In this document: one piece after another, positions 51,101 to 54,777 of the stretch | How positions within the stretch are numbered: position 1 is the first letter of the stretch | Layout of the letters: every line of letters starts with the position of its first letter | NCBI RefSeq assembly: GCF_009914755.1 | Contig: NC_060939.1 | Length of the DNA: 64,000 nt | Strand: one strand, 5' to 3' | From: the human T2T-CHM13v2.0 reference genome, Homo sapiens | The notes under the pieces: model-generated | Told to the model about the DNA's origin: nothing | What the model saw: the letters and a program-made list of their open reading frames with translations, nothing else | Database searches by the model: none | Program-made: the position numbers and the translations under genes

Positions 51101-51795
51101 AATTACCATCTTCATTTATTCTTTTTTTAATGAGTATAAACTTGCCATTTTTAATTAAAGTTACTTACAATTGAATTAGCTAAAAAGTCTAGTGCATTTG
51201 AAACAAAATTGTTTATAAGCTAGCTATGTTTACAGAATGAAAAGTAAAATTAAAGATAAAGACATTAATATTCTAAATTAGCACTTTCCAAACTGTGTTC
51301 TAAAAACCAACACTCATAACACAAGGAGATGAGAATAATGTACACTGGACAGCCCCTGTGGGGCTGGTGGTGGTGTTGGTTGTTGTTCCTTTTAAAATAA
51401 GCTTCATCCCAGGGTGCTCTCAAGGCGCATCTTTGTGGCCCATTTGGTGCTCCTGCACAATGGGAAAAAATCAAATGCAGATACACTGTGGTGCCAGAAG
51501 AGAAAAAGCTGTTCCTTCTTCCAAGGCTAATGTCCAAAGTAGTACATATTGATTTAGGTCTGGAACGCAGTGAAAAACTAATTTTTCGTAAAAAACATTA
51601 AATAAAAGGAACCTATCCTTCTCACTGTGTTCAACATTGTCTTAAGGTATAAAGGCATCAAATAGCTACACTTTTTCTGGGATTGCTTATTTGCTAACTG
51701 ATTTTTCCTTCCACCACGACGTCTAAGATTAAATGAGAAATTGATACTTAATATTTAGAATCTGGATATCAATATGTAGTTGACTCCAATTTCTT

Positions 51796-52121
51796 TTTCT
51801 TTTTTCTTTTTCTTTTTCTTTTTTTTTTTTTTTTTTTTTGAGACGGAGCCTAGCTCTGTCGCCCAGGCTGGAGTGCAGAGGCACGATCTTGGCTCACGGC
51901 AAGCTCCGCCTCCCGGGTTCACGCCATTCTCCTGCCTCAGCCTCTGGAGTAGCTGGGACTACAGGCGCCCGCCACCACGCCCGGCTAATTTTTTTTGTAT
52001 TCTTAGTAGAGATGGGGTTTCACTGTGTTAGCCAGGATGGTCTTGATCTCCTGACCTCGTGATCCGCCGCATCGGCCTCCCAAAGTGCTGGGATTACAGG
52101 CATGAGCCACCGCGCCTGGCC
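51796..52121 (-). mobile_element. AluY inside the 3' part of the retrocopy
   Basis: AluY diagnostics, long T tail, TSD ccaatttctt at 51786-51795 and 52122-52131. Confidence 0.95.
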
Positions 52122-53106
52122 CCAATTTCTTAAACTGATTGCTGAAGAGGGCAACCAAATGGCTGAAATAATTTTAGAATAAAGGAGTGTCTCCCTTGGT
52201 AGTATAGTTGTACTCAAAATTTTATTGTAAGATGAGTCTGGCCGGCCGTGCTGTCATTAAGGAGCATGAACGTTGTTGCTGAATAAAATGCTCAGTAGAT
52301 ACCTCTGGGTTGTCAGAGGGGCTGGACTCTAATACTGTATCTCCAGGCCTCTGCAGGTTAGGGATGTGGTGCATGTGTAGGTCTTCTCCAACTTCAAATT
52401 TATCTGTCCTTCAGCTGCTGCCTCACAGATCCCAGGAGGGAACACCATCCCCTGTTGCTGGTCCAACTTGGGGCTGGCCATGATAAATTCATTGGGCTGG
52501 CAGACAGTGGTAGCGACTCCTCCCAGGGCAATCCAGGGGTTTAGTATGGTTTGGCCACCCATTACAGATGTTCCTGCTTCCTCAGCTGCGTCTTTAAAAC
52601 CCTGGATAATCAGAGACATCATTTTATCCCTTTCCCTGTCGGTCATTTTATGACTGACTCCAAGGAGCATCAGCATATTGTCACATTCCGTGACCCACAT
52701 TGCGTAGAGGTCACTGAAGACACTGGCACGTGCTATCCTGCCCATCATGGAAGGGTCGTCTACGATCCGGTAAACGTAATCTGTAGTTTGAACCAAGGAA
52801 AGCCCACCGTGCCTCAAAGGAATGACACGAGTATCCATTCCAATGCCAAGCCTTGGCGTAACGGCTCCCAGAAACTGCTCATCTTCTTGGAAGTGGTTCT
52901 CCTATAAAGATTACAGCAATTTTTGCAGGACATCTTGGGGCACTTTGCAGCCTGTGCCCTTCAGTTCAGTGAATCTGGTTAGCCGGAAGCTCTTGTCCAA
53001 TTCGTAACTTTCGGGGTTAAAGGACTCACGCGTAGACATGGTTCTTGGGTCCGCTCTCCTCACAGCTTGCCCCCTCCCCACCCTCTGCGGGTTGGCTGGG
53101 TTCTTT

Positions 53107-54319
53107 TTTTTTTTTTTTTTTTTAATTTATTTTTTTTATTATACTTTAAGTTTTAGGGTACATGTGCACATTGTGCGGGTTAGTTACATACGTATACATG
53201 TGCCATGCTGGTGTGCTGCACCCACTAACTCCTCATCTAGCATTAGGTATATCTCCCAATGCTATCCCTCCCCCCTCACCCCACCCCACAACAGTCCCCA
53301 GAGTGTGATGTTCCCCTTCCTGTGTCCATGTGATCTCATTGTTCAATTCCCACCTATGAGTGAGAATACGCGGTGTTTGGTTTTTTGTTCTTGAGATAGT
53401 TTACTGAGAATGATGATTTCCAATTTCATCCATGTCCCTACAAAGGACATGAACTCATCATTTTTTATGGCTGCATAGTATTCCACAGTGTATAAGTGCC
53501 ACATTTTCTTAATCCAGTCTATCACTGTTGGACATTTGGGTTGGTTCCAAGTCTTTGCTATTGTGAATAATGCCGCAATAAACATACGTGTGCATGTATC
53601 TTTATAGCAGCATGATTTATAGTCCTTTGGGTATATACCCAGTAATGGGATGGCTGGGTCAAATGGTATTTCTACTTCTAGATCCCTGAGGAATCACCAC
53701 ACTGACTTCCACAATGGTTGAACTAGTTTACAGTCCCACCAACGGTGTAAAAGTGTTCCTATTTCTCCACATCCTCTCCAGCACCTGTTGTTTCCTGACT
53801 TTTTAATGATTGCCATTCTAACTGGTGTGAGATGGTATCTCATTGTGGTTTTGATTTGCATTTCTCTGATGGCCAGTGATGGTGAGCATTTTTTCATGTG
53901 TTTTTTGGCTGCATAAATGTCTTCTTTTGAGAAGTGTCTGTTCATGTCCTTCGCCCACTTTTTGATGGGGTTGTTTGTTTTTTTCTTGTAAATTTGTTTG
54001 AGTTCATTGTAGATTCTGGATACAGAATCTTTGTCAGATGAGTAGGTTGCAAAAATTTTCTCCCATTTTGTAGGTTGCCTGTTCACTCTGATGGTAGTTT
54101 CTTTTGCTGTGCAGAAGCTCTTTAGTTTAATTAGATCCCATTTGTCAATTTTGTCTTTTGTTGCCATTGCTTTTGGTGTTTTAGACATGAAGTCCTTGCC
54201 CATGCCTATGTCCTGAATGGTAATGCCTAGGTTTTCTTCTAGGGTTTTTATGGTTTTAGGTCTAACGTTTAAGTCTTTAATCCATCTTGAATTGATTTTT
54301 GTATAAGGTGTAAGGAAGG
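53107..54319 (-). mobile_element. 5'-truncated young LINE-1 (L1PA2-like, about 1.2 kb) in the retrocopy 5'UTR
   Basis: Perfect 16-bp TSD gttggctgggttcttt at 53091-53106 and 54321-54336; young 3'UTR (gttagttacata, tttccaatttcatcc) with the GAG rather than ACA/ACG diagnostic. Confidence 0.95.
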
Positions 54320-54777
54320 CGTTGGCTGGGTTCTTTAGGGATTCACCCGCTTGCTTTGCGCCCTCCGCCTCCTCCCGGAAAATGGGCCGTGAACGGCTCC
54401 CACAATGCACCGGGCGCTGCCGGCTTCCCTTAAGCATTGCCTGAATAAAAACGCCGCGGCCCGCAGTAGCGGCCACAGCGAGGACGCGGGCTCACGCCTG
54501 GGCGCTGCTGGGGCTCGTTTGGCTCGGCGCGACCCTGTGGAGCCGGGACTCTGCGCTCCCGTCAGCTGGGCCGGGGGCTGGTTTATTCTTTAGTTTTAAG
54601 ACAATTTAAAGTATATACATTTCAATTTAAAAGATAATATTCAACTTAAGGAAAATATTGAATACACTTCTTATGTTTTTCTTTTAAAAAACATAGCTGC
54701 AGCTTAAAGAAATATATTGTGTTCACTTTTTAAATTTTAAACACAAAGTGGTAAGATAGAACAATAAAATCGAAGTG

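What the first reader, a model, noticed from the sequence alone, without database searches (positions are those of the whole stretch)
51115..54591. Chimeric SEPHS1 retrocopy: fossil mRNA with a foreign 3' terminal exon
Seen: intronless SEPHS1 homology stops inside codon 187 (EFIM, 52480/52479). The frame continues for 49 unrelated residues ([10 protein letters not shown]...GLEIQY*), then AT-rich UTR-like sequence, ATTAAA (51150-51155, minus) about 21 nt before a short A run, and a 10-bp repeat tttattcttt that recurs at the 5' end of the GC-rich leader. The whole of about 1.9 kb (excluding the Alu and L1) therefore looks like a single L1-mediated insertion. Recalled and unverified: SEPHS1 has an intron within codon 187, which would make the switch a splice junction. 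Inference: a germline transcript joined the SEPHS1 5' exons to an unannotated last exon or to another gene (read-through, as in PIPSL), encoding a 236-aa protein with the N-terminal domain but no C-terminal domain. I cannot identify the 3' donor.
Basis: partly seen in the sequence, partly recalled or inferred. Interest (0 to 1): 0.8.

Follow-up and report, generated by a model that had tools for sequence, protein, structure and literature searches.

The report
Chimeric SEPHS1–cyclin-Y-like processed pseudogene
This dead retrocopy on chromosome 15 preserves an ancient spliced messenger RNA that joined the first five exons of SEPHS1 to exons of a cyclin-Y-like gene, two genes that today lie about 25 million bases apart on chromosome 10.

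Summary
One L1-type insertion (minus strand, 54581..51122) is flanked by an exact 10-nt target-site duplication. It was later split by an L1 fragment and an Alu, each with its own duplication.

The 5' part is intronless SEPHS1, exons 1-5. It ends on the last base of exon 5, and the parent reads ...ATCAT|GTAAGT.

It is the chromosome-10 cyclin-Y-like gene lineage: the CCNYL2-like copies and the 5' module of AGAP4-14. The tail is itself spliced: exon 1, exon 2, exon 4, then read-through into the next intron to an ATTAAA signal.

The tail begins on the first base after a CAG, 35 nt into the cyclin coding sequence. That site looks like a 3' splice site, and the join keeps the cyclin reading frame.

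Both halves give the same age, 5.9% and 5.7% divergence. I read this as a retrocopy of a splice-made chimeric mRNA (about 0.8). The human T2T genome holds no arrangement that would allow splicing in cis.

I favour a juxtaposition on chromosome 10 that has since been lost (0.5) over trans-splicing (0.3). Reverse-transcriptase template switching is unlikely (0.05).

The copy is non-functional, with two in-frame stops. It is a new member of a known kind; interest is moderate.

The parts
54582..54591 (-). 5' copy of the target-site duplication (AAAGAATAAA as read on the minus strand)
   Evidence: Exact 10-nt direct repeat, family D12. It lies 4 nt from the start of SEPHS1 exon-1 homology.
54337..54581 (-). 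GC-rich leader: SEPHS1 exon 1 (5'UTR) plus the start of exon 2
   Evidence: 82% identical to C10:13361046-13361281. The SEPHS1 retrocopies on X and chr2 share it. The exon 1/2 junction is near 54345.
53107..54320 (-). Later insertion of a LINE-1 3' fragment with a poly(A) tail, inside the SEPHS1 5'UTR part
   Evidence: Flanked by an exact 16-nt duplication at 53091-53106 and 54321-54336 (D2). Masked as repeat in the hub table. Matches an L1-like stretch on chr1. The L1 identity itself is recalled; Pfam gave no hit.
52480..53106 (-). SEPHS1 exons 2-5, intronless; ATG at 53039-53037; stops at 52913-52911 and 52904-52902
   Evidence: Four parent exons on C10 match at 92-95%, 38 mismatches in 648 aligned bases. 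Pfam AIRS N-terminal domain, E 2e-11. PDB SEPHS1 residues 68-187. Two in-frame stops.
52479..52480 (-). Chimeric junction: last base of SEPHS1 exon 5 joined to the first base after CAG at +35 of the cyclin-Y-like exon 1
   Evidence: Parent donor ATCAT|GTAAGT. Genomic copies read ...TGTGCCCCAG|GGCCAGCCC, and the retrocopy reads ATCAT|GGCCAGCCCC.
52341..52479 (-). Cyclin-Y-like exon 1, from codon 12 to its donor, with internal deletions of 6 and 43 nt
   Evidence: Alignment to 12 chr10 copies, chr19 and chr2. It ends exactly where those copies have G|GTAAGG.
52303..52340 (-). First 38 nt of cyclin-Y-like exon 2
   Evidence: Aligned to exon 2 of the chr10 copies. It starts 6 nt upstream of the AGAP-type acceptor, right after an AG that the 39.05-Mb copy has.
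52217..52302 (-). Cyclin-Y-like exon 4 (the exon reading VSTVRF... in the genomic copies)
   Evidence: Starts where the genomic copies have ...CTTCAG|GTATCTACTG. The chr2 homologue of this exon matches Cyclin-Y, PDB 9r2i_D residues 96-126, E 8.4e-11.
51129..52216 (-). Read-through into cyclin-Y-like intron 4 (interrupted by the Alu), with ATTAAA at 51155-51150
   Evidence: Collinear with genomic DNA downstream of exon 4 in 13 chr10 copies at 87-91% identity. Homology stops at the A run.
51796..52121 (-). Later Alu insertion
   Evidence: Exact 10-nt duplication CCAATTTCTT at 51786-51795 and 52122-52131 (D6). Sub-threshold Metazoa_SRP and mir-1268 matches on the minus strand. Absent from all genomic copies of the tail.
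51122..51128 (-). Short poly(A) tail (7 A)
   Evidence: Homology to the genomic copies ends at 51130.
51115..51124 (-). 3' copy of the target-site duplication
   Evidence: family D12.

Best explanation
An L1 reverse transcriptase copied one chimeric mRNA into chromosome 15, roughly 40-50 million years ago. The date rests on recalled primate substitution rates.

**Shown**
- The mRNA ran from the SEPHS1 5' end through exon 5.
- It was joined exactly at the exon-5 donor to the base after a CAG, 35 nt into the coding sequence of exon 1 of a chromosome-10 cyclin-Y-like gene. This gene lineage survives as the CCNYL2-like copies and as the 5' module of AGAP4-14.
- The RNA continued through cyclin exon 2 and exon 4. 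It ended at an ATTAAA signal inside the following intron.
- The join kept the cyclin reading frame.

**Inferred**
- The join was made by the spliceosome.
- Most likely it was made in cis, on a transcript that started at the SEPHS1 promoter and ran into a cyclin-Y-like copy. That copy would have lain downstream of SEPHS1 exon 5 on the same strand.
- Such a juxtaposition could arise from a duplicative transposition or an inversion, at the time this duplicon first spread along chromosome 10. It has since been lost.

The retrocopy was probably dead on arrival or soon after. It now has two in-frame stops, internal deletions, and an L1 and an Alu insertion.

My odds: about 0.8 for 'retrocopy of a splice-made chimeric mRNA' in either form, and 0.5 for the cis form stated here.
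For: **Single insertion.** An exact 10-nt duplication abuts the poly(A) at one end and lies 4 nt from the SEPHS1 exon-1 homology at the other.

**Donor side.** Homology ends at C10:13346857, and the next parent bases are GTAAGT.

**Acceptor side.** The tail starts right after CAG in ...CTGACCTGTTGTGTGTGCCCCAG|GGCCAG.
- All 12 of 12 chr10 exon-1 copies have AG at this position. The chr2 paralogue does not, and the chr19 paralogue has a deletion there.
- Of 33-37 AG sites scanned per copy, this one ranks first or tied first by upstream pyrimidines in 2 of 4 chr10 copies, and second in the other 2. It has a CTGAC branch-point-like motif.

**Chance estimate.** These are my own figures. The 8 exon junctions in at least 1400 nt of SEPHS1 mRNA are recalled gene structure. 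The 34 AG sites in 323 nt come. For an unguided breakpoint the two coincidences multiply to about 6e-4.

**Frame.** The retrocopy reads EFIM|ASPKL. The 43.33-Mb copy reads CPR|ASPGL in its own frame.

**The tail is itself spliced.** Its exon 1/2 and exon 2/4 joins fall at genomic splice sites spread over 13 kb.

**Equal age of the halves.** SEPHS1 exons 2-5 differ from the parent at 38 of 648 bases (5.9%). The tail's terminal branch is 0.057.

**For cis rather than trans.**
- Both parents lie on chromosome 10.
- The tail branches at the base of the chr10 radiation, when copies were being scattered along that chromosome.
- Gene fusions by read-through are enriched at segmental duplications (PMC6764479, abstract seen).
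Against: The T2T-CHM13 genome holds no cis arrangement.
- SEPHS1 lies at 13.34-13.36 Mb on the minus strand. The nearest cyclin-Y-like copy is at 38.22 Mb on the plus strand.
- No cyclin-Y-like fragment was found near 13.3 Mb. Every first-look candidate was scored in these searches: 19 of 19, 18 of 18 and 17 of 17.
- There is no second genomic copy of SEPHS1 exons 2-5, with 10 of 10 candidates scored.
- No paralogue of SEPHS1 intron 5 appeared. Here only 40 of 48246, 10011 and 3677 candidates were scored, and repeats filled the lists.

The cis step therefore rests on an arrangement that no data here show.

Other weaknesses:
- The acceptor lies inside a first exon, so it is a cryptic site. My scoring of it is crude, using pyrimidine count and a branch-point motif only.
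- One base (G) is shared by SEPHS1 exon 6 and the tail at the junction. A 1-nt microhomology switch would give the same letters.
- Outgroup genomes could not be examined.
Confidence: 0.5

Rival explanations
1. Trans-splicing. Separate SEPHS1 and cyclin-Y-like pre-mRNAs, from distant loci on chromosome 10, were joined by the spliceosome. The SEPHS1 exon-5 donor was spliced to the +35 cryptic acceptor. L1 then retrocopied the rare product.
For: It explains the exact donor and acceptor use just as well. It also needs no genome arrangement that is absent today. A preprint on LINE-1 chimeras reports gene exons ending exactly at splice donors joined to L1 next to acceptors, and raises trans-splicing for them (10.1101/2025.02.02.635956, passages seen).
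Against: Trans-splicing between two mammalian protein-coding genes is rare; this is established knowledge, not tested here. Under it, both partners lying on chromosome 10 is a coincidence of about 1 in 20 by chromosome share, unless nuclear proximity matters. SEPHS1 intron 5 is only about 4 kb. The preprint links such events to long downstream introns, with a median of 48 kb.
Confidence: 0.3
2. Template switching during reverse transcription. L1 ORF2p began on a polyadenylated cyclin-Y-like RNA and jumped to a SEPHS1 RNA. The chimera would then have formed at the insertion site and never existed as an mRNA.
For: Chimeric retrocopies made this way are well documented, for example U6/L1 (PMC4476161 search listing; 10.1101/2025.02.02.635956 passages). 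They too have one pair of target-site duplications and one poly(A). One shared G at the junction would allow a 1-nt microhomology jump.
Against: Both breakpoints would have to fall on splice sites by chance. One is the last base of SEPHS1 exon 5. The other is the first base after the best-ranked CAG of the cyclin exon. My joint estimate is about 6e-4 (the SEPHS1 exon count is recalled). The preserved cyclin frame adds another 1 in 3. A longer shared GCCAG is offset by one base, so using it would give a product one G shorter than observed.
Confidence: 0.05
3. Two separate events or a DNA-level rearrangement. Either a cyclin-Y-like retrocopy or genomic duplicate was already at this site and a SEPHS1 fragment landed next to it, or a normal SEPHS1 retrocopy lost its 3' half and abuts unrelated DNA.
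For: None specific. Exact 10-nt repeats do occur by chance in this AT-rich stretch, with five other exact pairs in 3.6 kb.
Against: The SEPHS1 part has no poly(A) of its own and is truncated at its 3' end, which L1-made copies are not. The tail lacks introns and ends in its own signal and A run, so it is not resident genomic DNA. The duplication brackets both parts together. The two halves have the same divergence.
Confidence: 0.02

Closest known systems
PIPSL (retrocopy of a PIP5K1A-PSMD4 intergenically spliced read-through mRNA, hominoids)
   Same: An L1-made retrocopy of a chimeric mRNA in which exons of one gene are spliced to exons of another. PIPSL is named as the example of this kind in PMC6764479 (abstract seen) and PMC5470649 (reference list seen).
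   Different: The PIPSL parents are adjacent on the same strand (recalled). Here the parents are at least 24.9 Mb apart, and the nearest copy is on the opposite strand. The acceptor is a cryptic site inside a first exon, and the copy is dead. PIPSL is an expressed gene.
Gene-exon/LINE-1 chimeric insertions with splice-site junctions (preprint 10.1101/2025.02.02.635956)
   Same: The upstream gene exons stop exactly at a splice donor. The downstream part starts next to an acceptor. There is one pair of target-site duplications and one poly(A). Cis mis-splicing or trans-splicing is proposed (passages seen).
   Different: In those cases the 3' partner is L1 RNA itself. Here it is a second cellular mRNA, already spliced and ending at an intronic poly(A) site. 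The terms SEPHS1, AGAP and CCNY do not occur in that text. Its supplements were not open to me.
Template-switch chimeric retrocopies (U6/L1, 5S/L1 and the like)
   Same: Two unrelated RNAs fused head to tail within one L1-type insertion.
   Different: Those junctions bear no relation to splice sites, and the 5' part is usually a full small RNA. Here both sides sit on splice sites.
CTGLF1/AGAP4-type genes (cyclin gene plus CENTG2 retrocopy)
   Same: The same chromosome-10 cyclin-Y-like gene lineage supplies exons to a chimera. Baertsch et al. 2008 describe CTGLF1 as a cyclin gene that gained PH, ArfGAP and ankyrin domains from a CENTG2 retrocopy (PMC2584115, passages seen).
   Different: There the cyclin gene is the host and supplies the 5' end, and the product is a living, amplified gene family. 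Here the cyclin exons are the 3' end of a SEPHS1-led transcript, preserved only as a pseudogene on another chromosome.

Membership tests
L1-mediated processed pseudogene (retrocopy) | Lacks the parent gene's introns | tested here: met
   SEPHS1 exons 1-5 are contiguous here but spread over about 14 kb at C10:13346857-13361281. The cyclin exons are contiguous here but spread over 13 kb in the genomic copies.
L1-mediated processed pseudogene (retrocopy) | Poly(A) tail after a polyadenylation signal at the 3' end | tested here: met
   ATTAAA at 51155-51150, then 21 nt, then seven A. Homology to genomic copies stops at the A run. The tail is short, as expected for an old copy.
L1-mediated processed pseudogene (retrocopy) | Target-site duplication flanking the whole insert | tested here: met
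   Exact 10 nt at 51115-51124 and 54582-54591 (D12).
L1-mediated processed pseudogene (retrocopy) | Empty site in species that diverged before the insertion | not testable with these tools
   No primate outgroup genomes are held.
Retrocopy of an intergenically spliced (read-through) mRNA, PIPSL type | Junction at the upstream gene's splice donor | tested here: met
   The parent reads ATCAT|GTAAGT, and the retrocopy's SEPHS1 part ends on that T.
Retrocopy of an intergenically spliced (read-through) mRNA, PIPSL type | Junction at a splice acceptor of the downstream gene | tested here: met
   The tail starts right after CAG with a pyrimidine-rich run and a CTGAC motif upstream. AG is present in 12 of 12 chr10 copies. 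It is a cryptic site inside exon 1, not an annotated acceptor.
Retrocopy of an intergenically spliced (read-through) mRNA, PIPSL type | Parent genes adjacent on the same strand | tested here: not met
   In T2T-CHM13, SEPHS1 is at 13.35 Mb (minus). The cyclin-Y-like copies are at 38.22 (+), 39.05 (+) and 43.33 (-) Mb, and from 46.56 to 87.89 Mb. The ancestral arrangement is unknown.
Template-switch chimeric retrocopy | Junction unrelated to splice sites; 5' part usually ends at its RNA's natural 3' end | tested here: not met
   Both sides of the junction coincide with splice sites. SEPHS1 ends at an internal exon boundary.
SEPHS1 (selenophosphate synthetase 1) derived sequence | Sequence identity to the SEPHS1 gene and protein | tested here: met
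   92-95% identity to four parent exons. PDB SEPHS1 match at E 4e-66, residues 68-187. Pfam AIRS N-terminal domain. The C-terminal domain is absent.
Chromosome-10 cyclin-Y-like lineage (CCNYL2-like copies and the AGAP4-14 5' module) | DNA homology to those loci, exons and intron | tested here: met
   87-91% identity over 660 nt to 13 chr10 copies. Nested in the chr10 clade; placement outside it is rejected at p-AU 0.038. Ten copies sit about 0.88 Mb above the hg38 coordinates of AGAP4-14 in Table 1 of PMC11534156 (my arithmetic).
Chromosome-10 cyclin-Y-like lineage (CCNYL2-like copies and the AGAP4-14 5' module) | Relationship to cyclin Y at the protein level | tested here: met
   The chr2 paralogue of the tail's exon 4 matches Cyclin-Y, PDB 9r2i_D residues 96-126, E 8.4e-11. 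Its exon 1 is a weak top hit to the same chain, E 0.074. The AGAP-type exon alone gave no hit. The gene names CCNYL1 and CCNYL2 for the chr2 and 43.33-Mb loci are recalled. PMC8474217 places CCNYL2 at 10q11.21.

The most novel reading that the evidence does not exclude
The retrocopy is a genomic fossil of true germline trans-splicing between the pre-mRNAs of two protein-coding genes tens of megabases apart: the SEPHS1 exon-5 donor to a cryptic acceptor in a cyclin-Y-like first exon. That would give hard, DNA-recorded evidence, free of any in-vitro reverse-transcription artefact, that such chimeric mRNAs existed in an anthropoid ancestor.
Probability: 0.3. Interest if true: 0.75.

Novelty: new member of a known kind. 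Interest (0 to 1): 0.5.

Why it matters
Retrocopies are snapshots of germline RNAs from tens of millions of years ago. This one records a transcript that no present human locus can produce in cis. It ties SEPHS1 to the cyclin-Y-like gene that later seeded the AGAP core duplicon of chromosome 10.

If the join was made in cis, the retrocopy is the only surviving trace of an extinct SEPHS1-cyclin fusion locus. That locus would have arisen when the duplicon began to move, and the retrocopy gives both a date and a search image for it in other primates. If the join was made in trans, it is a rare artefact-free record of mammalian trans-splicing.

There is also a practical point. RefSeq's SEPHS1P2 span (52441..53107) covers only about a third of the real insertion.

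The element itself has no sign of function.

Tried and rejected
1. **Canonical SEPHS1 3'UTR, or a hidden SEPHS1 exon, as the tail's source.** Rejected. No tail segment matches within or near C10:13.3 Mb.
2. **Remnants of a cis arrangement.** I looked for cyclin-Y-like exon 1 and tail copies near SEPHS1, and found none. I looked for extra genomic copies of SEPHS1 exons 2-5, and found none. I looked for paralogues of SEPHS1 intron 5, whole, first 389 nt and last 1 kb. Only interspersed repeats came up, and only 40 of many thousand candidates were scored, so this is weak.
3. **Upstream flank of the 39.05-Mb copy.** Its homology to the other copies stops about 265 nt before the ATG. I compared the flank with the stored SEPHS1 loci and found only Alu matches.
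4. **Other SEPHS1 retrocopies carrying the same tail.** I compared the copies on X, chr2 and chr7 and the fragment at chr2:114.68 Mb. No alignment to the tail beyond the junction was returned for any of the four. The X copy continues into exons 6 and 7.
5. **Assigning the tail to one living copy.** Not resolved. It is sister to the AGAP clade at only 85/81 support. Alternative placements are not rejected (p-AU 0.075 and 0.21).
6. **Pfam on the L1 ORF and on cyclin exon 1.** No hits.
8. **Fetching about 170 kb around SEPHS1 and upstream of four copies.** I fetched 7 kb and 3 kb instead, so a wider local comparison of the two regions was not done.
9. **Literature.** No paper holds SEPHS1, chimeric and retrocopy together. 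SEPHS1P2 occurs in 2 papers, seen only as search listings whose titles concern unrelated topics. CCNYL2 with AGAP occurs in 1 unrelated paper.
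Full report
**1. What is there**

Read on the minus strand, the stretch 54591..51115 is one retroposed unit bracketed by an exact 10-nt direct repeat. The repeat is TTTATTCTTT on the plus strand, at 51115-51124 and 54582-54591.

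Two younger insertions interrupt the unit:
- **An L1 3' fragment with its poly(A), 53107-54320.** It is flanked by an exact 16-nt duplication (D2).
- **An Alu, 51796-52121.** It is flanked by an exact 10-nt duplication. Sub-threshold 7SL and mir-1268 matches support the Alu identity.

With these removed, about 1.9 kb remains. An exact 10-mer pair is not unusual in this AT-rich DNA; one search lists five other exact pairs. The position is what matters. One copy follows the A run directly. The other lies 4 nt before SEPHS1 exon-1 homology begins.

**2. The SEPHS1 half**

The leader (54581-54337) matches SEPHS1 exon 1 at C10:13361046-13361281 at 82% identity. Identity is low there, and 14 of the 39 mismatches are CpG-type.

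The stretch 53093-52480 matches four further parent exons at 92-95%. Together these show 38 mismatches in 648 aligned bases.

The last match ends at C10:13346857. The parent then reads GTAAGT.

Protein-level checks agree:
- The alignment to human SEPHS1 (PDB 9hjt, 3fd5) ends at residue 187.
- Pfam finds only the AIRS N-terminal domain.
- Two in-frame stops lie upstream.

Three other SEPHS1 retrocopies exist, on X, chr2 and chr7. None aligns to the tail, and the X copy runs on into exons 6 and 7.

**3. The tail's donor**

No tail segment matches near SEPHS1.

The last 661 nt match 13 places on chromosome 10 at 87-91% identity. They also match single places on chr2 (76%), chr19 (72%) and chr16 (72%), and a 108-nt piece on chr1. 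These 17 matches, with the window's own copy, are all 18 candidates scored.

Ten of the chr10 places lie about 0.88 Mb above the hg38 positions of AGAP4, 5, 6, 7P, 9, 10P, 11, 12P, 13P and 14P in Table 1 of PMC11534156 (passages seen; the arithmetic is mine). My tree recovers that paper's two AGAP clades. The other three places are at 38.22, 39.05 and 43.33 Mb. I recall the 43.33-Mb locus as CCNYL2. PMC8474217 lists CCNYL2 at 10q11.21.

The family is cyclin-Y-like:
- The chr2 homologue of the tail's last exon matches Cyclin-Y, PDB 9r2i_D residues 96-126, at E 8.4e-11.
- Its exon 1 gives the same chain as a weak top hit, E 0.074.
- Baertsch et al. 2008 describe CTGLF1, an old name for an AGAP4-type gene, as a cyclin gene that gained a CENTG2 retrocopy. 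They report it present in rhesus and absent in marmoset (PMC2584115, passages seen).

**4. The tail is itself a spliced RNA**

| Window span | Piece | Evidence |
|---|---|---|
| 52479-52341 | Cyclin exon 1, ending exactly at the genomic donor G\|GTAAGG | |
| 52340-52303 | First 38 nt of exon 2 | |
| from 52302 | Exon 4, entered at its genomic acceptor | |
| to 51129 | Run through the exon-4 donor into intron 4, about 750 nt once the Alu is discounted, to ATTAAA and the A run | |

- The exon 2 piece begins 6 nt upstream of the AGAP-type acceptor, right after an AG that the 39.05-Mb copy has.
- In one genomic copy these pieces span 13 kb.
- The rest of exon 2 and all of exon 3 are missing. I estimate about 72 nt from the exon sequences seen. 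The break in exon 2 falls at GAG|GCAAGC in the genomic copies.
- Whether that gap is alternative splicing from a GC-type donor or a later deletion is open.
- Exon 1 also carries deletions of 6 and 43 nt.

**5. The junction**

The retrocopy reads ATCAT|GGCCAGCCCC. The 43.33- and 38.22-Mb copies read ...CTGACCTGTTGTGTGTGCCCCAG|GGCCAGCCC. The tail therefore starts on the first base after a CAG, 35 nt into the cyclin coding sequence.

- **Conservation of the AG.** All 12 of 12 chr10 exon-1 copies have AG there. The chr2 paralogue has none, and the chr19 paralogue has a deletion.
- **Rank of the site.** I scanned 33-37 AG sites per copy, across exon 1 plus 100 nt upstream. By upstream pyrimidine count this site is first or tied first in 2 of 4 chr10 copies and second in the other 2. 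It has a CTGAC motif about 20 nt upstream. This is a crude score, not a trained model.
- **Frame.** The join keeps the cyclin frame. The retrocopy reads EFIM|ASPKL, and the 43.33-Mb copy reads CPR|ASPGL.
- **Chance estimate.** For an unguided breakpoint I put the two splice-site coincidences at about (8/1400) x (34/323), or roughly 6e-4. The 8 junctions and the mRNA length are recalled SEPHS1 structure.
- **Microhomology.** One G is shared between SEPHS1 exon 6 and the tail, so the letters alone cannot exclude a 1-nt microhomology switch. A longer shared GCCAG is out of register by one base.

**6. Age and placement**

The tail sits inside the chr10 clade. Holding all 13 genomic copies together without it costs 8.0 log-likelihood units (p-AU 0.038). 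This test was chosen after I had seen the tree.

The tail is sister to the AGAP clade at 85/81 support. Other placements are not rejected (p-AU 0.075 and 0.21).

Its terminal branch is 0.057. The AGAP lineage from the same node runs about 0.05. The SEPHS1 half is 5.9% from its conserved parent. The two halves are therefore the same age.

The event falls at the time the cyclin-Y-like segment first multiplied on chromosome 10. With recalled primate substitution rates this is roughly 40-50 million years ago.

**7. Mechanism**

- **Shown:** one insertion; both halves processed; the junction on a donor and on an acceptor-like site; the cyclin frame kept.
- **Inferred:** the spliceosome made the join, and L1 copied the product.

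T2T-CHM13 offers no cis route. SEPHS1 is at 13.35 Mb on the minus strand. The nearest copy is at 38.22 Mb on the plus strand. No remnant of either partner lies beside the other (weaker evidence).

I still favour a lost cis juxtaposition (0.5). Both partners lie on chromosome 10, the duplicon was being scattered along that chromosome at just that time, and read-through fusions cluster at segmental duplications (PMC6764479, abstract).

For illustration only, an inversion between SEPHS1 intron 5 and a point just upstream of a plus-strand copy on 10p11 would produce exactly this transcript. Nothing here shows that it happened.

The other odds are trans-splicing 0.3, template switching 0.05, and two-step or DNA-level origins 0.02.

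**8. Comparison and novelty**

The closest known case is PIPSL, but its defining feature of adjacent parent genes is not met here. The gene-exon/L1 spliced chimeras of preprint 10.1101/2025.02.02.635956 show the same junction logic with L1 as the 3' partner.

I found no description of this chimera in print:
- SEPHS1P2 occurs in 2 papers, seen only as search listings whose titles concern unrelated topics.
- No paper holds SEPHS1, chimeric and retrocopy together.
- The terms are absent from the three papers I searched for them.

The supplements of these papers, which may list chimeric retrocopies, were not seen.

The element is a new member of a known kind. It is dead and shows no sign of function. 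Its interest lies in what it records.

**9. Limits**

- No outgroup genomes, transcript annotation or RNA data were available.
- The gene names for the non-AGAP loci, the L1 and Alu family names, and the dating rates are recalled.

Noticed in passing
L074:1341-1448 (G000 C1:59225341-59225448): A 108-nt piece of AGAP-type intron 4, 94-97% identical to the 10 AGAP-type copies and 94% to this retrocopy, sits between a 21-nt T run and an inverted L1 3' end. It looks like an L1 3' transduction from an L1 that once lay in an AGAP duplicon.
   Followed up: partly
window 52441-53107 (RefSeq SEPHS1P2): The annotated pseudogene span covers only the SEPHS1 coding part plus 39 nt of the tail. It misses the leader (54337-54581) and about 1 kb of cyclin-Y-like tail (hub table).
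   Followed up: yes
G000 C10:46560439 and 46562772 (L031): The AGAP-type copy carries two near-identical copies of cyclin exon 2, about 2.3 kb apart. The aligned 151 nt, exon plus flanks, are 95% identical. This is an internal duplication of that exon.
   Followed up: partly
L054:1-1340 (G000 C10:39046868-39048207): The 39.05-Mb cyclin-Y-like copy shares only about 265 nt upstream of its ATG with the other copies, which share at least 1.3 kb. Further upstream I saw unrelated sequence that looks LTR-like to me, plus Alus. This is either a duplication boundary or an insertion.
   Followed up: partly
L018:1303-1400 (G000 C10:46573049 onward): In this AGAP-type copy (AGAP10P by coordinates) exon 4 reads ...DDSTAISIILQ and then a stop, which fits its pseudogene status.
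   Followed up: no
L029 (G000 C2:114685432-114685604): An older SEPHS1-like intronless fragment, 80% identical, spans the exon 4/5 junction. It does not carry the cyclin tail.
   Followed up: partly
L059 (G000 C22:25788554-25788669) and L060 (C19:21889440-21889665): Two further weak matches (72% and 67%) to cyclin-Y-like exon 1. Both include the bases upstream of the +35 site. They are probably old paralogues or retrocopies and were not examined.
   Followed up: no
window 51936-51987, minus strand: Sub-threshold Rfam match to mir-1268 (65.7 bits against a gathering score of 83) inside the Alu. I take it to reflect the Alu itself, not a distinct gene.
   Followed up: no
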